In this document: piece after piece, positions 27,001-33,000 of the stretch
How positions within the stretch are numbered: the first letter of the stretch is position 1
How the letters are laid out: each line of letters opens with the position of its first letter
Assembly (NCBI GenBank): GCA_036012755.1
Contig: DASCPX010000027.1
Span: 64,001 to 128,000 of the forward strand
DNA length: 64,000 nt
Reading direction: 5' to 3'
Source: Myxococcota bacterium
GTDB taxonomy: Bacteria; Myxococcota_A; UBA796; CAJQPC01
Made by a program: the position numbers

Positions 27001-30000
27001 GGATGGACACGGTGTCCTGGGCAAGCGCCTGCGCCAACAGCAAGTGCATCATCGAAGCCCCCCCAGCTCGTCGTAGCGCGACTTGACGGCCTTGAGGTCG
27101 TCGAAGGTGTAGCGCTTGTCCTGGGGCTGTCTCAGCAGGTAGGCGGGATGGAATGTCGGCATCACGGGCACGTTTCGCCAGAGGTGCCAGCTGCCTCGCA
27201 TGGTGGTGATGCCGCGGTTCGTCTTCAGGAGCGTCTTCACCGCTGGACTCCCGAGAGTCAGGATCACCTTCGGTCCGATGGCCTCGAGCTGCTTCTCGAG
27301 GAAGGGCAAGCAGGATGCTATCTCGTCGGGCTGCGGGCTCCGGTTCTTCGGCGGACGGCACTTGACGACGTTGAGGATGTAGACCTTGGCCCGTGAGAGG
27401 CCCAGCACGCGCTCGAGCATCTTGTCGAGCATCTCCCCTGCCGCTCCGACGAAGGGCAGGCCGAGGCGGTCCTCGTTGGCGCCGGGACCCTCGCCGAGCA
27501 CCACGAGGTCCGCGTTCGGATGTCCCATGCCGAAGGCCACCTTCTGTCGCTGCTCGCAGAGGCGACAGCGGGCGCACTCCCCGAGCTCCGCGCGGATGGC
27601 GACGAGTCTCTCCGCAGCCGCCCGTGCGGCCGAGCCCTCCGGGAGCGGGGGCAGGTCGTCCTGGCTGAAACCCCAAGCGCCGACAGCATGATCGAGCCCG
27701 TAGACCGGCGGTCTCTCTTCGAGCTGGTCGTCCCACGACTCCTTGGGCGGGGCCTGGCGCTCCGGCTCGGTCGCCCCGGTCGGCGGGGCCTGGCGCTCCG
27801 GCTCGGTCGCCCCGGTCGGCGGGGCCTGGCGCTTCGGCTCCTGGCTGGAGGCCGTCCGATGTGTCGCGCCCATCGCCCTGTCCGCACGGAGCCTCTCGTG
27901 AACGTCCGCCACGAGGTCCGCAAGTTCCTGGCGTGGGTCACTCATCAGGGAGTCTCCAGCCGAGCGCGCGAAGCTCGGAGATCACTCGCAGCACCGGCAG
28001 GCCGACGACGTTGAACCAGCTGCCATCGATCGACTCGCAGAGCCACGCCCCTCGTCCTTCGATCTCGTAGCCCCCCGCGCAAGCGCGTCCCTCGCCGCTG
28101 GCGACGTAGGAGGCGAGCTCCTCGTCGCTGAGATCGCCCCGAAAGCGGAGACGGGTGGTCTCGTGAAAGACACGCTCGACCCCCTCCCCCACCAGCGCCA
28201 CTCCGGTCACCAGGTCGTGGGTCCGTCCAGCGAGCTCGCCGAGCGTCGCGCGGTGCTCCGCGGCGTCCCGGGGTTTGTGGAAGATGCGTCCGTCGAGGTG
28301 GACCACGCAGTCGGCGCCGAGGACGAGGGCGCCCGGACGTTGCTCTGCCACGGAGCGAGCCTTCCAGAGGGCCAGCGTCTCCGCGAGCTCGACCGGCTCT
28401 GTGACCCCGCATGCGCGCTCGTCGACGCTAGGCGCGACGCCTTCGCTGGGCACTCCGGCGCGCTCCAACAGAGCCCGTCTCCAGGGGCTCGTGGACGCGA
28501 GGACAAGCGGCATCGAGGGGCTCCGACGCGGGGCTCGCCCCGTGCATTCGGTGGGTCGATAGAGTAACCTGCGCCCGTTCTGCGAGTCCCGTGACACGGG
28601 GCGTCAACTGCGATCGTGAGGCCCTGAGGAATGAGTTCAAGCCGCGCCGTCGGCATCGACCTGGGGACTACCTTTTCGGCGATCGCGCACGTGAACCGAC
28701 ACGGCGTCCCCGAGATCCTTCACAACGCCGAAGGTGATCGCATCACCCCCTCGGTCGTCCTGTTCGATGGCGACGAAGTCATTGTCGGCAACTACGCCAA
28801 ACAGAGCGCGGTCGTGTACCCGGAGCAGGTGGTCGAGTTCATCAAGCGCCACATCGGGGATGCCGACTTCTACTTCGAGTATCGCAACGAGAACTACTCG
28901 CCCGAGCGCATCTCCAGCTTCATCCTCGCGAAGCTCAAGCACGACGCAGAGCTGCGCCTCGGCCACCGCATCGACCAGGCCGTGGTCACGGTCCCGGCCT
29001 ACTTCAACGACCACCAGCGTCAGGCGACCCTGAAGGCGGGTGAGCTCGCTGGCTTGCGGGTGCTGAAGCTCATCAACGAGCCCACCGCCGCGGCCTTCGC
29101 CTACGGCCTGAACAACGCCGACAGCAACAAGCGTGTCCTGGTCTTCGACCTCGGCGGCGGTACCTTCGACGTCACGATCTGCCAGATCGACGGCCGTGAC
29201 ATCAACGTCAACGCGACCAACGGCGACCACCAGCTCGGCGGGAAGGACTGGGACGACGCGCTCATCCGCTATGCCGCGGAGTGCTTCGAGGAGAAGCACG
29301 GCATGGATCCGCTAGAGGACCTCGCCGCCTACCACGACCTCCGCCAGAAGTGCGTCTCGGCGAAGATCAGCCTCACCCGCCGCCCCAAGGTCAACCTCTT
29401 CTACGACTACAAGGGCAAGATCATGCGGCTGGAGGTCACGCGCTCGAAGTTCGAGGACCTCACCAGCGGCCTGATGCGACGGGCGGAGCTCCTGACCGAC
29501 GACGTCCTGCTCGACGCCAGCTTGGACCGAAACGCCATCGACACCGTGCTCCTCGCCGGCGGCTCGACCCGCATGCCCATGGTCCGGGCGATGTTGAAGA
29601 AGATGTTCGCCCGGGCACCGGCGACGGACATCAACCCCGATGAGTGCGTCGCCCTCGGGGCCGCGCTCACGGCAGCGCTCGAGGCGGCGAGGCTCTCTGG
29701 AGAGAAGCCCGACATCGACATCCGCACGCACGATGTCACCTCCCACAGCCTGGGCATGGTCGTCTTCCGGGAGAGCCAGCTCCACAACTCCCGCATCATC
29801 TCGAAGAACACTCGAATCCCCTGCGAGCAGACCAGGGACAACTACGTCACGACCCACGATGGGCAGACGACGATGGACCTTTGGCTGGTCCAGGGAGAGA
29901 ACGAGGATCCGCTGGAGTGCAACGTCCTCGGTCACTTCGAGTTCTACGGCATCCCACCACGCCCGGCCGGCGAGTCTCGTCTCGCGGTCACCTACCGCTA

Positions 30001-33000
30001 CAACGCCAACGGCATCGTGGAGGTGGAGGCGATGGACCTTCGGAGCGGACAGACCCTGGCGCACCGCCTCGCGGCTGGCCACATCACCCTCGAGGATCTG
30101 GCCCGGAACCGGATCCCGATGCAGATGGCGCTGATCATGGACTGCTCCGGCTCCATGTACGGCCAGTCGATCGACGACGCCAAGACGGCAGCCAGGTCAT
30201 TCGTGGAGCGCAGCCTCCAGCCGGGTCGTCAGCTCGCGATCGTCGCCTTCCCCGGTGGGGTGCTGGCTCCCCCCACCTCCGACATCCGTCGGCTCACGGG
30301 CGCCATCGACCAGCTCACGCCGATCGGTTCCACTCCCATGGCGGACGGGCTCCGCCACGGGCGTGACCTCCTCCGCCCACGGGCGGGCGTCCAGCGCGTG
30401 TTCGTGGTCATGACCGACGGTCACCCGGATGACCCGGACGCCGTCAGCGCCGAGATTCACCGCATTCGCAGCACGGGCGGCCGAGTGGTGGCGATCGGCG
30501 TCGGTCCCCAGGTCCGGCAGGAGTTCCTGAAGGGCCTTGCCTCCAGCCCCAACGACTACCACTTCTGCAGTGAGTCGGTTGAGCTCGAGGGGACGTTCAT
30601 CAACCTTGCGACCGAGCTCGGCGCGACCTGAAGGACTGCACATGAGTACCGAGGCCGAAGTCGAGGCCCTGCGGCAGGAAGTCCGCGAGCTCCGAGAGAT
30701 CCTGACGGCGCGGAACGAGGGCGAGATCACCCAGCAGAAGGCCTTCGACTCGCTGTACGAAGAGCTCCGGCAGTACAAGGACGACTTCATCTTCCAGGCT
30801 GAGAAGCCGCTGCTATTGGACCTGCTGCTCTTCTACGACTCCCTGAACTGGTTCCAGGAGTCCCTGGTCAAGAAGGAGATGTCGATGGACGTCATCTCCG
30901 ACAGCTTCCAGTACTTGATCGACGAGTTCCTCGAGGTCCTCTACCGGCGGGACGTGCTGCCGATGGAGAGCCAGCAGAAGTTCGATCCGAAGAGCCAGAA
31001 GGTCGTGAAGGTCGTTGCCCCCGACGAAGCTGGCAAGGACCAGATCGTCGCCCAGGTCCTCAAGCGCGGCTTCAACCGCGCGGAGCGCGTCCTGCGGTCG
31101 GAAGAGGTCGTCATCTACCGGGACACGGCAAAGACGGGCCGGGACTGACTGGATGGTCGCTGAGGGTCAGATCATCCTGGGCATCGATCTTGGGACGACG
31201 TTCTCGGCGATGGCCTATGTCGATCGCTTCGGCAAGCCGAACATCATCCCCAACGGCGATGGCCACTCCACGACGGCTTCCGTCATCCACTTCTACGACC
31301 GCAACGCCTGCGTCGTCGGAGAGGAGGCGGTGAAGATGGTCGTGGTCGATCCGACCAACGTCGTGCGGTTCATCAAGCGCTCCATGGGCGACACGGACTT
31401 CGTCCTGGACTTCTTCGGCGTCAGCTACACGCCCCAGGAGCTCTCGGCGTTCATCCTCAAGAAGCTGAAGAACGACGCCGAGGAGGCACTCGGAAAGCCA
31501 GTCGATCACTGCGTGATCACGGTGCCGGCCTACTTCAACAGCTCCCAGCGTGGGGCGACCGCCGAAGCTGGGAAGATCGCCGGCTTCAACGTGCTGTCCA
31601 TCATCAACGAGCCGACCGCCGCGGCCATCGCCCTCGGCCTCGCTCACCTCGGAAAGAACCGCCGGATGCTGGTCTTCGACCTCGGCGGTGGCACCTTCGA
31701 CGTGACGGTGATGGAGATCCGAGGGACCACGCTGCGGACGCTGGCCAGCGACGGCAACGCGGAGCTTGGCGGCAAGGACTGGGACGATCGGCTGCTCAGC
31801 CACGTCGCCGAGCAGTTCCGTGACAAGTTCGGACTGGACCCGCGGGACGACCCGCTGCCCTACCAGGAGCTCTACGAGCGCTGTCTCCACGCCAAGATCT
31901 CGTTGTCGACCAAGCCACGAGCCGTGATCCCGGTGAACTTCCGCGGACACCGCATGGTCGTCCAGGTCACCCGGGCCGAGTTCGAGGAGATGTGCAGCGA
32001 CCTCTTCGAGCAGTGCATCGACACCAGCAAGATCGTCATGGACAAGTCGAAGATCACCTGGGACGCGGTGGACGAGATCGTTCTGGTCGGCGGCTCCACG
32101 CGGATGCCGATGATCCGTGACAACCTCGTCGCGCTGTCGGGAGGGAAGCCGGTCAGCAAGGGCATCAACCCGGATGAAGGCGTCGCCCTCGGTGCGGCCC
32201 TCGCGGGTGTGTTCCGCCACCAACCGAACCACACGGCGCTGAAGGCCCACCGAGCATCCATCACCCGGGCGCGTCGCGGCACCTCCAAGACGCTCCCCCC
32301 GGTCCCCAAGCGGACGGCGAGGCTGAAGCCGGTCTCGGCGCCCAAACCCGCCGGACTCCAGAAGCTGACGGTCCAGGACGCGTCCAGCCACGCCATGGGC
32401 ATCGTGGTGCTGGATGCGCGCCACAACGAGCGCGTCGTCAACCTGATCCCCGAGAGCTCCCCGCTGCCGGTGGAGAAGAGGGGCCGCTTCGCCTACGCCT
32501 ACGACAACATGACCGCCGTCCGGGTCGAGGTCACGGAGGGCACCGGCGTGGCCAGGGGCGAGGTCACCGTGATCGGCGAGGTCATCCTCGAGAAGCTGCC
32601 GCCGCGAGTGCGTGGGACGCCGATCGACGTGATCTACCGCTACACCGAGAACCAGATCCTCGAGGTCCATGTCATCGATGTGGAGACCCGCGCGCTCCGC
32701 CAGGCGCGCCTGAACCTCAAGGGGAGCCTGGACTCGCAACGCCTGGAGCAGGCCCGCGACGCCTTGTCGCAGGCCATCATCAACTGATGGGGGGTGTTCG
32801 CCCTGTAGTCGCTTGATTGACCGGTTGAGGCGCTGAGGGTAGAACATTCCGGCGGAATGCCGGAGCGAAATGGACCGCCGCGATCTGGAGCAGATCGACA
32901 CCTTCCTCGGTATGGTCGGAAAGGCGTCGCTGTTCGACTACTACGGACTCTCATCGACCGCCGGTAGCTCCGAGGTGGAGACGGCTATCAAGAAGCGTCG

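What a model noticed while it worked through the whole genome (the two positions that open the first line are those of the whole stretch)
28631..32787. Hsp70 whose C-terminal lid is replaced by a VWA domain, in an operon with its own GrpE and a second Hsp70
g00954 (666 aa) is a DnaK-type Hsp70 (nucleotide-binding and beta-sandwich parts, res. 6-475, 47% identical to DnaK) that ends in a von Willebrand A domain (res. 500-646) instead of the helical lid; g00955 (GrpE-like) and g00956 (a second, 544-aa Hsp70) follow in the same direction. I read the trio as a dedicated chaperone machine in which the VWA domain tethers the Hsp70 to one fixed client or assembly (for instance a motility or envelope complex), rather than a general folding system. 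New would be an Hsp70 class with a built-in protein-docking module; the family is large, of fixed length and very conserved, yet only called 'Hsp70 family protein'.
Evidence so far: Pfam: HSP70 6-475, VWA 500-646. Swiss-Prot: DnaK of Haloarcula 47.2% over res. 1-473 of 635. Word-based search with res. 470-666 alone: 272 clusters E<=1e-3; the 120 listed are nearly all 665-672 aa, carry PF00012 plus PF00092/PF13519, and are 64-99% identical over the VWA part; sources name them 'Hsp70 family protein', 'molecular chaperone DnaK', 'VWA domain-containing protein' (Myxococcota-, Deltaproteobacteria- and other MAG labels). The housekeeping grpE-dnaK-dnaJ set is elsewhere (g03535-g03537, C127). The VWA part keeps a MIDAS-type motif (D-C-S-G-S ... 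T-D-G) (sequence in call 200).
(Added by a program. Inside this text positions count along the whole contig: contig position 64,001 is position 1 of the stretch shown here. "Call 12" and the like, gene names such as g00115 and contig names such as C1 are that model's own, and its searches are not shown. The text may have been shortened before it was handed on; [...] marks where a part breaks off. The agent that wrote the report below was given it as the finding of a first reader that could run no searches.)

Follow-up and report, generated by a model that had tools for sequence, protein, structure and literature searches.

The report
Lidless Hsp70-VWA chaperone operon
A marine myxobacterium-like genome carries a conserved five-gene private Hsp70 chaperone set whose lead Hsp70 has a metal-dependent VWA docking domain where the helical lid should be; nobody has studied it and its target is unknown.

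Summary
Window 28631-30631 encodes a 666-aa Hsp70 (ATPase domain plus peptide-binding beta-sandwich) that ends in a canonical VWA domain with an intact MIDAS metal site. The helical lid is gone after its first helix. It does not head a trio. It heads a tightly packed five-gene operon: Hsp70-VWA, a small GrpE, a paralogous lidless Hsp70, a membrane-spanning J-like protein without the HPD motif, and a TPR-zincin metallopeptidase.

In a phylum sample, 56 of 59 genomes of the window's order carry the fusion at one syntenic site. None of 341 genomes outside the order did at the threshold used. Rarer, more distant fusions exist elsewhere. One low-GC metagenome contig keeps the same gene order.

The genome has ordinary grpE-dnaK-dnaJ elsewhere, so this is a dedicated machine. 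I read it as an ATPase-plus-VWA-adaptor remodeller, like MoxR-VWA pairs, anchored at the inner membrane by the J-like protein. The tethering role of the VWA domain is inferred, not shown, and the client is unknown.

I found no paper describing it. This scan has already reported the same module on other DNA (e1-4418930, e1-4418931, e1-5314143). Verdict: a new variant of a known kind.

The parts
28631..30631 (+). Hsp70-VWA fusion, 666 aa: ATPase domain about res. 1-356, linker about 357-372, peptide-binding beta-sandwich about 373-482, remnant of lid helix A 487-491, VWA domain 497-666
   Evidence: Pfam HSP70 6-475 and VWA 500-646. DnaK alignment to res. 491. AlphaFold2 model pLDDT 88.6, pTM 0.78. 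Structure search: ATP-bound BiP 5e84_A, Z 51.4, rmsd 2.0 over 469 residues, model 1-482. VWA part: Mfa5 vWF domain 6tnj_A, Z 25.2, rmsd 1.5 over 173 residues.
30119..30628 (+). VWA domain with MIDAS site (D504-C-S506-G-S508, T568, D596)
   Evidence: Invariant or at least 90% conserved in 74 orthologues. DxSGS and the last D are kept in all ten divergent copies examined. The middle T is S, N or G in some.
30642..31148 (+). Small GrpE-like nucleotide-exchange factor, 168 aa, starting 10 nt after the Hsp70-VWA stop
   Evidence: PF01025, 54 bits against a cut-off of 25.8. It is the weakest of the four GrpE matches in the genome (54.7 bits against 98-125). It follows the fusion gene in nearly all loci that reach that far.
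31153..32787 (+). Second, lidless Hsp70 (H70b), 544 aa, with a basic Pro-rich insert of about 75 aa between the ATPase domain and the beta-sandwich
   Evidence: PF00012, E 8.5e-113, in three stretches. It groups with the Hsp70-VWA proteins (support 84/84), apart from the genome's other seven Hsp70s, which form a 100/100 clade.
32870..34846 (+). J-like membrane protein, 658 aa: helical N-terminal domain 1-155, J-like domain 165-233 without HPD, disordered Pro-rich linker 241-331, PapD/MSP/ASH-like beta-sandwich 338-432, TM helix 437-457, beta domain 476-542, alpha/beta C-terminal domain 564-654
   Evidence: PF00226 on 166-226, 30.2 bits against a cut-off of 27.8. NF033768 AgmX/PglI tail on 565-651, 31.3 bits, below the cut-off of 40. 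AlphaFold2 pLDDT 85.8 with the listed segments. Structure matches: res. 336-433 to HYDIN/CEP192 ASH, VAP MSP and PapD-like chaperones, Z 10-12.4; res. 162-237 to J domains, Z about 10. The HPD site reads 'RSLKD'.
34843..35679 (+). TPR plus Zincin_1 metallopeptidase, 278 aa; its start overlaps the preceding stop by 4 nt
   Evidence: PF06262, E 3.3e-24, on 179-276, plus TPR families. The HEVGH motif region is conserved across 31 sequences.
27938..28597 (-). Maf-like gene, divergent; upstream boundary of the operon
   Evidence: PF02545, E 1.5e-50. It is syntenic in most loci.
35722..35797 (+). tRNA-Ala(CGC); downstream boundary
   Evidence: ARAGORN.

Best explanation
The locus is a private, membrane-proximal Hsp70 machine of five co-oriented, tightly packed genes.

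The lead protein is a catalytically intact Hsp70 with an ATPase domain and a peptide-binding beta-sandwich. Its helical lid is replaced by a canonical VWA domain with a metal-ion-dependent adhesion site (MIDAS).

I propose that it works like the MoxR-VWA class of remodellers, with ATPase and adaptor in one chain:
1. The VWA metal site grips an acidic residue on a folded partner or target.
2. The very conserved beta-sandwich binds a hydrophobic segment.
3. ATP hydrolysis, reset by the operon's own small GrpE, drives cycles of grip and release on that one target.

The other parts would act as follows. The bitopic J-like protein places and regulates the two Hsp70s at the inner membrane and links them to the envelope. 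It has a cytoplasmic helical domain, an HPD-less J-like domain and a PapD/MSP-like domain, and periplasmic beta and AgmX/PglI-like domains. The paralogous lidless Hsp70 is a second working or regulatory subunit. The TPR-zincin may process the target.

Shown here: the domain make-up, intact catalytic and MIDAS motifs, operon conservation, vertical inheritance across one order, and separate housekeeping sets. Inferred: tethering by the VWA domain, membrane recruitment, and the role of the protease. The client is unknown.
For: Architecture: Pfam, alignment to DnaK, and AlphaFold2 models with structure matches.

ATPase motifs are invariant in 74 orthologues: D10, K72, E150, D173-D180 and G310-P316. 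So is the MIDAS site.

Mean pairwise identity by domain is 78% for the beta-sandwich, 71% for the ATPase domain and 65% for VWA. All three parts are therefore under constraint, the peptide-binding part most of all.

The operon is tight. The gaps are 10, 4 and 82 nt, followed by a 4-nt overlap. No plus-strand terminator-like site lies inside it.

Gene order is conserved in the loci long enough to show it. It is also conserved in an unrelated low-GC contig, L082 (GC 36-38%, fusion protein 41% identical): Hsp70-VWA, GrpE, a 530-aa Hsp70, a 676-aa J-like membrane protein without HPD, and a TPR protein.

In the phylum sample, 56 of 59 genomes of the order have the fusion.

The genome holds canonical grpE-dnaK-dnaJ and a second dnaK-dnaJ pair elsewhere.

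The two operon Hsp70s cluster together, away from the other seven Hsp70s of the genome.

VWA proteins acting as adaptors for an ATPase is established for MoxR-VWA systems. This is summarised in PMC7159879 (passages read); the individual examples are recalled.
Against: - No binding partner for the VWA domain has been identified.
- Some members of the order keep only Hsp70-VWA plus GrpE (L163), or lack H70b and/or the J-like protein as judged by tblastn (L080, L089, L166). All keep the DxSGS and D residues of the MIDAS site. If the VWA ligand is a protein, it is therefore probably not one of these operon products, and the five-gene 'machine' is not obligatory.
- The interdomain linker reads 'DIRTHDV' where DnaK has the hydrophobic 'DVLLLDV'. 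The J-like domain lacks HPD. Canonical J-stimulated allostery may therefore not apply.
- Synteny within the order extends to unrelated flanking genes (TGT, S1, Maf). Within-order gene order is thus weak evidence of functional linkage. Only L082 is an independent case.
- There are no expression data.
Confidence: 0.55

Rival explanations
1. The VWA domain is an intramolecular substitute for the lid. It sits over the peptide-binding cleft or docks on the ATPase domain, and it regulates substrate release or autoinhibits the chaperone. It is not an external tether.
For: - The VWA domain starts right after the remnant of lid helix A, exactly where the lid body would follow.
- The three-domain model has pTM 0.78, which suggests a defined mutual arrangement.
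- The MIDAS site is retained even where operon partners are missing.
Against: - An invariant, complete MIDAS site on an adhesin-type VWA fold (Mfa5, ANTXR2 and integrin I-domain matches, Z 22-25) usually binds an acidic residue of another molecule.
- I could not read the model's domain contacts, so the geometry is untested.
Confidence: 0.17
2. The operon is a biological-conflict or defence module. It would be related to the HSP70-GrpE theme of the GAP1-N2 GTPase systems, where an Hsp70 assembly thresholds an effector.
For: Kaur et al. 2020 (PMC7159879, section on GAP1-N2 systems read) describe neighbourhoods with HSP70, GrpE, a second HSP70, a beta-sandwich-repeat protein fused to DnaJ or TPR, PEGA domains and vWA proteins. 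This is nearly the same parts list.
Against: - Pfam named no GTPase among the genes I scanned from TGT to the alpha/beta hydrolase. Two flanking ORFs have no Pfam match.
- PADLOC gave no hit of note.
- The module is single-copy and lies at one syntenic site between housekeeping genes in 56 of 59 genomes of an order. That is the pattern of a vertically inherited core function, not of a mobile defence island.
Confidence: 0.12
3. It is simply an extra stress chaperone set with a decorative or decaying C-terminal domain, and has no special mechanism.
For: The genome has about 11 Hsp70-family genes, 4 GrpE and 11 J-domain matches. Paralogue expansion is therefore general in this organism. The M. 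xanthus survey found mild phenotypes for non-DnaK Hsp70s (PMC8265645, abstract and one section read).
Against: - The VWA domain is 65% identical on average across the order, with an invariant MIDAS site.
- The fusion is shared with distant lineages at 33-46% identity over the VWA part, with the same junction.
- No stop codons or decay were seen in 73 full-length orthologues.
Confidence: 0.06

Closest known systems
Canonical DnaK-DnaJ-GrpE system
   Same: It has the same ATPase domain with all catalytic motifs, a peptide-binding beta-sandwich, a GrpE-type exchange factor and a J-fold partner.
   Different: There is no helical lid; a VWA/MIDAS domain stands in its place. The linker is not the hydrophobic DVLLLD. 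The J partner lacks HPD and is a membrane protein. A second, paralogous lidless Hsp70 and a TPR-zincin lie in the operon. The genome keeps true grpE-dnaK-dnaJ elsewhere.
MoxR-type AAA+ ATPase with VWA/MIDAS adaptor (MoxR-vWA systems; Mg-chelatase D subunit)
   Same: An ATPase is coupled to a MIDAS-bearing VWA domain that is thought to hold the target. TPR partners are common. The VWA part gives weak NCBIfam hits to cobaltochelatase and BchD/ChlD VWA regions. The concept is as in PMC7159879.
   Different: The ATPase here is an Hsp70 (actin-fold), not AAA+, and it is fused to the VWA domain in one chain. No MoxR gene is present in the operon.
HSP70-GrpE theme of GAP1-N2 GTPase systems (Kaur, Burroughs, Iyer, Aravind 2020, PMC7159879)
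   Same: The parts list matches: HSP70, GrpE, a second HSP70, a DnaJ fused to a beta-sandwich protein, TPR, and membrane and PEGA-type domains.
   Different: Pfam named no GTPase beside it. The second Hsp70 keeps its peptide-binding domain. The VWA is fused to the Hsp70. The module is vertically inherited in one Myxococcota order, whereas the published theme is in actinobacteria and firmicutes.
Specialised lidless or short-lid bacterial Hsp70s with private partners (E. coli HscC with membrane J-proteins DjlB/DjlC; M. xanthus StkA)
   Same: These are short Hsp70s of about 540-560 aa dedicated to a private, sometimes membrane-anchored, J partner. StkA is 540 aa and is not heat-induced (PMC4319316). 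The HscC-DjlC details are recalled, not checked here.
   Different: None of these carries a VWA domain or its own GrpE. StkA's neighbours are an SCP2-like protein and a small protein. I made no sequence comparison with HscC or StkA.
Hsp70-like NBD/SBD units fused to other modules in CoCoNuT/McrBC systems (PMC11090510)
   Same: This is a precedent for an Hsp70 ATPase-plus-beta-sandwich unit that carries a foreign module instead of a lid, with separate VWA genes nearby (passages read).
   Different: There the ATPase motifs are degenerate, and the fusion partners are McrB/McrC and HEAT repeats in defence operons. Here the ATPase motifs are invariant and the partner is a VWA domain.

Membership tests
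Hsp70 (PF00012) | Actin-fold ATPase domain with the phosphate-binding and catalytic motifs | tested here: met
   PF00012 E 1.2e-138. D10, K72, E150, the DLGGGTFD block and the GGSTRMP block are invariant in 74 orthologues. Structure match to BiP, Z 51.4. Which residues are catalytic is recalled from DnaK.
Hsp70 (PF00012) | Peptide-binding beta-sandwich (SBD-beta) | tested here: met
   Aligned to DnaK through res. 482-491. Strands are modelled at 365-480. This is the most conserved part, at 78% mean identity.
Hsp70 (PF00012) | Alpha-helical lid (SBD-alpha) after the beta-sandwich | tested here: not met
   The Pfam match stops at profile position 491 of 599. Only a 5-residue helix (487-491) lies before the VWA domain.
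Hsp70 (PF00012) | Hydrophobic interdomain linker (DVLLLD type) | tested here: not met
   The sequence reads PDIDIRTHDV, aligned to DnaK's KDV--LLLDV. 'RTHDVTSHSLG' is conserved in orthologues. The model nevertheless docks it as a strand in an ATP-like state.
VWA domain with MIDAS | DxSxS...T...D metal-coordinating residues on a Rossmann-like alpha/beta fold | tested here: met
   D504, S506, S508, T568 and D596 are conserved. PF00092, 59.6 bits against a cut-off of 23.8. Z 22-25 and rmsd 1.5-2.4 to VWA or I-domains over about 170 residues.
GrpE (PF01025) | GrpE fold scoring above the family threshold | tested here: met
   54 bits against a cut-off of 25.8 over profile positions 9-163. All NCBIfam GrpE equivalog models score far below their cut-offs (at most 40 bits against at least 137). 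It is therefore a divergent member.
J-domain proteins (PF00226) | Four-helix J fold | tested here: met
   30.2 bits against a cut-off of 27.8 on res. 166-226. Structure matches to J domains, Z 9.4-10.2, on res. 157-247.
J-domain proteins (PF00226) | His-Pro-Asp motif between helices II and III | tested here: not met
   The window has 'RSLKD'. Of the orthologue rows visible (that output was cut), only L052 and L057 read 'RHPD'. L082 also lacks HPD.
GAP1-N2 GTPase-centric conflict systems (HSP70-GrpE theme) | A GAP1-type or DO-type GTPase gene in the neighbourhood | tested here: not met
   Pfam on the twelve genes from 23233 to 38845 names none. Two ORFs (24963-25955 and 26684-27736) have no match. 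I ran no profile built from the paper's own families.
MoxR-VWA systems | MoxR-type AAA+ ATPase gene paired with the VWA gene | tested here: not met
   No AAA+ family was found among the operon or flanking genes. The resemblance is functional only.
AgmX/PglI (GltJ/GltG) gliding-motor proteins | Full-length equivalog match | tested here: not met
   Only the C-terminal tail domain matches: NF033768, 31.3 bits against a cut-off of 40. GltG scores 15.4 bits against 650.

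The most novel reading that the evidence does not exclude
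Hsp70-VWA defines an unrecognised class of two-handed Hsp70 remodellers. A MIDAS site holds a folded target by an acidic residue while the beta-sandwich pulls on a hydrophobic segment. The machine is driven by its own GrpE and steered by an HPD-less, membrane-spanning J-like protein. It would thus couple cytoplasmic ATP turnover to an envelope-spanning assembly through the periplasmic AgmX/PglI-like domain. It would be an Hsp70 counterpart of MoxR-VWA machines and a natural example of J-protein action without HPD.
Probability: 0.2. Interest if true: 0.8.

Novelty: new variant of a known kind. Interest (0 to 1): 0.6.

Why it matters
Hsp70s are among the best-studied molecular machines. The lid, the hydrophobic linker and the HPD motif of the J partner are all regarded as central to how they work. 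This family is conserved and clearly under selection, yet it replaces the lid with a metal-dependent docking domain. It also alters the linker and pairs with a J-like protein that has mostly lost HPD. At the same time it keeps every ATPase motif and a private GrpE.

If the family works as proposed, two things follow. It would show how an Hsp70 can be hard-wired to one target. It would also give a natural system for asking which parts of the canonical cycle are dispensable.

The module is a near-universal trait of an uncultured marine and freshwater Myxococcota order. It therefore probably serves a lineage-defining envelope or membrane function.

Tried and rejected
- Complex prediction of the VWA domain (res. 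489-666) with the cytoplasmic part of the J-like protein (res. 1-436) gave no verdict. The score was 0.00 against a mark of 0.32, and the controls were not run. This is evidence neither way.
- Search for sequencing runs: 20 DNA holders from marine, seawater and vent metagenomes, and no RNA holder listed. That leaves no expression evidence, and I did not use read laying.
- PADLOC returned only two weak hits, E 0.0018 and 0.00017, each with no matched stretch passing on its own.
- The promoter scan found 0 sigma-70-like sites, and the four terminator-like sites are all on the minus strand. This is uninformative for a 66% GC genome.
The repeat with four sequences mostly returned the window's own lineage, and only L082 was a distant case.
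- I could not fetch the contigs of the distant fusion proteins (P0016, P0057/P0153, P0093, P0143/P0158, P0162).
- The helical N-terminal domain of the J-like protein did not appear among the rows that either structure search showed (50 rows; about 38 rows, through rank 50). ESM Atlas gave only unnamed look-alikes and a weak J-domain/DjlA lead. The domain remains unassigned.
- Literature searches found no description of an Hsp70-VWA fusion. The searches were: Hsp70 + von Willebrand + GrpE + bacteria; StkA + Hsp70 + Myxococcus; Hsp70 + VWA domain + lid + atypical; AgmX + DnaJ, which returned 0 papers; and HSP70 + vWA + MIDAS + bacterial. Subscription journals and supplements were not searched.
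- I considered StkA and SglK of M. xanthus as the same system and rejected this on gene neighbourhood and on distribution. I made no direct sequence comparison.

Full report
**Observation.**
- The 666-aa product of 28631-30631 matches Pfam HSP70 over res. 6-475 (E 1.2e-138) and VWA over res. 500-646 (E 5.9e-16).
- The 168-aa product of 30642-31148 matches GrpE (54 bits, cut-off 25.8).
- The 544-aa product of 31153-32787 is a second Hsp70 (E 8.5e-113).

Against solved structures the first protein aligns with M. tuberculosis DnaK from res. 4 to 491 (E 5e-104). That takes it through the beta-sandwich and into the first turns of lid helix A. The remainder of the lid is absent and the VWA domain begins at about res. 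497.

- a 658-aa J-domain protein at 32870-34846;
- a 278-aa TPR plus Zincin_1 metallopeptidase at 34843-35679, whose start overlaps the previous stop by 4 nt.

The gaps between the five genes are 10, 4 and 82 nt, then a 4-nt overlap. A divergent Maf gene bounds the unit upstream, and tRNA-Ala(CGC) at 35722-35797 bounds it downstream.

**The fusion protein.**
An alignment of 74 orthologues (65-94% identical to the window's protein) shows invariant ATPase motifs: D10, K72, E150, the DLGGGTFD block and the GGSTRMP block. The MIDAS site is also conserved: D504, C505, S506, G507, S508, D596 and G597 are invariant, and T568 is kept in at least 90%. Which Hsp70 residues are catalytic is recalled from DnaK, not tested.

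The interdomain linker reads DIRTHDVTSHSLG where DnaK has DVLLLDVTPLSLG. Mean pairwise identity is 71% for the ATPase domain, 78% for the beta-sandwich and 65% for the VWA domain.

AlphaFold2 on this alignment gives pLDDT 88.6 and pTM 0.78. In a search of 48,161 representative chains, the best match for res. 1-482 is ATP-bound BiP (5e84_A, Z 51.4, rmsd 2.0, 469 aligned). The model is therefore in the docked, ATP-like state. Res. 493-666 match adhesin-type VWA domains:
- Mfa5 6tnj_A, Z 25.2, rmsd 1.5, 173 aligned;
- ANTXR2, TEM8, integrin I-domains, a TFIIH VWA subunit and archaeal ArnB, at Z 21.8-24.1.

I could not inspect inter-domain contacts, so I do not know where the MIDAS face points.

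**The partners.**
The J-like protein was modelled from 41 sequences, with pLDDT 85.8. Its parts are:
- a confident helical domain at 1-155;
- a J-like domain at 165-233;
- a disordered Pro-rich stretch at 241-331;
- a beta-sandwich at 338-432;
- one TM helix at 437-457;
- a beta domain at 476-542;
- an alpha/beta domain at 564-654.

The beta-sandwich matches ASH/MSP/PapD-like domains (HYDIN, CEP192, VAP, pilus chaperones) at Z 10-12.4. Res. 162-237 match J domains at Z about 10. The C-terminal domain gives a sub-threshold match to the AgmX/PglI tail (NF033768, 31.3 bits against 40, E 1.7e-7).

The HPD motif is replaced by 'RSLKD' in the window. Of the orthologue rows visible (that output was cut), only L052 and L057 read 'RHPD'.

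Because the J-like domain must meet cytoplasmic Hsp70s, I infer an N-in topology with the last 200 residues in the periplasm.

The TPR-zincin keeps its HEVGH motif region across 31 sequences.

H70b carries the same ATPase motifs by eye. It also has a basic insert of about 75 aa between its two domains.

**Is it a private system?**
The genome has 15 HSP70 matches, about 11 genes, 4 GrpE matches and 11 J-domain matches. A canonical grpE-dnaK-dnaJ row lies at C127:72069-74744, and a second dnaK-dnaJ pair lies at C47. The operon's GrpE is the weakest of its family in the genome, and the operon's J domain is among the weakest.

In a maximum-likelihood tree of 18 sequences, the genome's other seven Hsp70s form one clade (100/100). 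H70b pairs with its L082 counterpart (100/100) and groups with six of the eight Hsp70-VWA proteins (support 84/84, internally unresolved). Two long-branch fusion proteins, P0093 and P0143, fall outside.

By blastp, H70b is 39-41% identical to Hsp70-VWA proteins against 31-32% to the DnaKs. The two operon Hsp70s are therefore old paralogues within a separate subfamily.

**Distribution.**
A pattern scan of species-representative genomes returned 80 loci, all MAGs. Most are labelled Myxococcota or Deltaproteobacteria, and some are obviously mislabelled. tblastn shows the order Maf | Hsp70-VWA, GrpE, H70b, J-like, TPR-zincin in nearly all loci long enough to show it. The flanks (TGT, S1-domain gene, an unassigned ORF) are also conserved, so this synteny is largely vertical inheritance.

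I searched an even sample of 400 other genomes of the phylum with res. 470-666.
- 56 of 59 genomes of the window's order match at E <= 1e-25. By family the counts are 10/11, 21/21, 8/8, 4/4, 2/3 and 11/12.
- 0 of 341 genomes outside the order match. More divergent fusions could fall below that threshold.

The J-like protein's N-terminal domain is likewise confined to the order; only the generic J domain matches elsewhere.

Some members of the order have reduced sets by tblastn:
- L163 has only Hsp70-VWA and GrpE.
- L080 lacks H70b and the J-like protein.
- L089 lacks H70b.
- L166 lacks the J-like protein.
- L162 shows no GrpE.

All of them keep the DxSGS and final D of the MIDAS site.

**Beyond the order.**
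An exhaustive HMMER search of 1.84 billion representatives with the VWA part found 7,613 proteins at E <= 1e-3 and 12 at E <= 1e-30. I picked 37 of the 150 listed hits by length and match position and scanned them against Pfam. Twelve carry both HSP70 and VWA, and six of these are full-length at 669-696 aa. Their VWA parts are 33-46% identical to the window's.

Their clusters are small, with 1-5 members. Source names include Myxococcota and Candidatus Desantisbacteria. Aligned, they share the same junction, the MIDAS site, the 'DVTxHSLG'-type linker and a C-terminal 'DYHF...ELE..F.NIA.EL' motif. The fusion therefore looks like a single old invention, not repeated accidents.

One metagenome contig, L082 (GC 36-38%), encodes five genes in the same order: a fusion protein 41% identical to the window's, a 201-aa GrpE, a 530-aa lidless Hsp70, a 676-aa J-like protein and a TPR protein. 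The J-like protein has its J domain at 170-230, no HPD, and the same 'ITSD..W(I/L)E' beta-sandwich followed by TM segments. This is the one case of operon conservation that shared ancestry of a whole neighbourhood does not explain.

**Mechanism.**
The firm points are an active-looking Hsp70 ATPase, a highly constrained peptide-binding domain, an intact MIDAS site, a private exchange factor and a membrane-spanning J-like partner.

I think the most likely reading is an ATPase-plus-VWA-adaptor remodeller. It would be the Hsp70 analogue of MoxR-VWA pairs, in which the VWA domain holds the target for the ATPase (concept as summarised in PMC7159879). It would work at the inner membrane on one fixed target. 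The TPR-zincin may act on the same target.

Three things remain inference: the tether role, the recruitment role of the J-like protein, and any link to the envelope.

The reduced operons that still keep the MIDAS site suggest that the ligand is encoded elsewhere, or is not a protein of this operon.

The main rival is that the VWA domain acts within the molecule as a lid substitute.

A conflict-system reading is prompted by the nearly identical parts list of the GAP1-N2 HSP70-GrpE theme. It is disfavoured because Pfam names no GTPase beside the operon, PADLOC gives no hit of note, and the module is inherited as a core gene set across the order.

**Comparison and novelty.**
Five literature searches found no description of an Hsp70-VWA fusion.

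The survey of the 15 M. xanthus Hsp70s (PMC8265645; abstract and one results section read) sorts them by conserved-domain class only. Its supplementary tables were not opened.

The StkA locus differs in its neighbours (PMC4319316, passages).

Hsp70 ATPase-plus-beta-sandwich units fused to other modules are known from CoCoNuT systems (PMC11090510, passages). The general idea of lid replacement is therefore not new.

This scan has already reported the same module on other DNA (e1-4418930, e1-4418931, e1-5314143). I reached the same reading before I saw those notes, and they are not independent evidence.

I file it as a new variant of a known kind, an Hsp70 system, and not as categorically new.

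Noticed in passing
window 52724-54421 (+): Another Hsp70 gene lies in the same window. It matches PF00012 over profile positions 1-565 of 599 (E 7.8e-204), so it is nearly full length. In the tree it groups with the C47 DnaK (support 93/87).
   Followed up: partly
G000:C27:166475-167956 (-) = L169:5390-7987; G000:C127:82768-84276 = L168: Further lidless Hsp70 paralogues carry unassigned C-terminal tails. One is an 866-aa ORF with HSP70 at res. 11-504, followed by about 360 residues with no Pfam match. Lid replacement may be a wider habit of this genome.
   Followed up: partly
G000:C160:96433-98297 and C160:76368-78543: Two more Hsp70 genes each have a J-domain gene beside them: a 520-aa Hsp70 with a J protein in a 697-aa frame, and a second Hsp70 with a J protein in a 207-aa frame. 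These look like further private Hsp70/J pairs.
   Followed up: no
window 32870-33334 (J-like protein res. 1-155); paralogue at G000:C47:124670-125104 (L171:4635-5825): This very confidently modelled helical domain (pLDDT above 93) has a near-invariant 'KKRR.WAQGQQ.NPKY' stretch and no family assignment. It has a paralogue in the genome and in other genomes of the order. By ESM Atlas structure look-alikes it heads unrelated proteins in Planctomycetota and Verrucomicrobiota. Its first half may be a second, degenerate J-like domain; this is a lead only.
   Followed up: partly
window 33590-33625 (J-like protein res. about 241-252) and orthologues: A short hydrophobic motif lies just after the J-like domain: IGWLP, IGFLP, IGLLGGP or GELLAGA. 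It recurs across orthologues inside an otherwise disordered Pro-rich linker. It is a candidate linear motif for an Hsp70 peptide-binding site.
   Followed up: no
L052:11932-13704 and L057:11922-13682: Two divergent orthologues of the J-like protein still read 'RHPD' at the HPD position, where most read 'R.L.D'. The motif was probably lost within the family.
   Followed up: no
L052, L065, L071, L024, L025 and others (record titles): Several public MAG records holding this Myxococcota-type operon are titled 'Klebsiella pneumoniae' or 'uncultured Enterobacteriaceae'. These are evidently wrong taxonomic labels.
   Followed up: no
window 26684-27736 (-) and 24963-25955 (-): Two ORFs of 350 and 330 aa have no Pfam match. 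The first is conserved in synteny upstream of Maf in many loci. The second overlaps the S1-domain gene and may not be real.
   Followed up: no
window 31153-32787, res. about 353-430 of H70b: A basic, Pro-rich insert separates the ATPase domain from the beta-sandwich. Its length varies among orthologues, and tblastn splits there. It would uncouple the two domains sterically.
   Followed up: no
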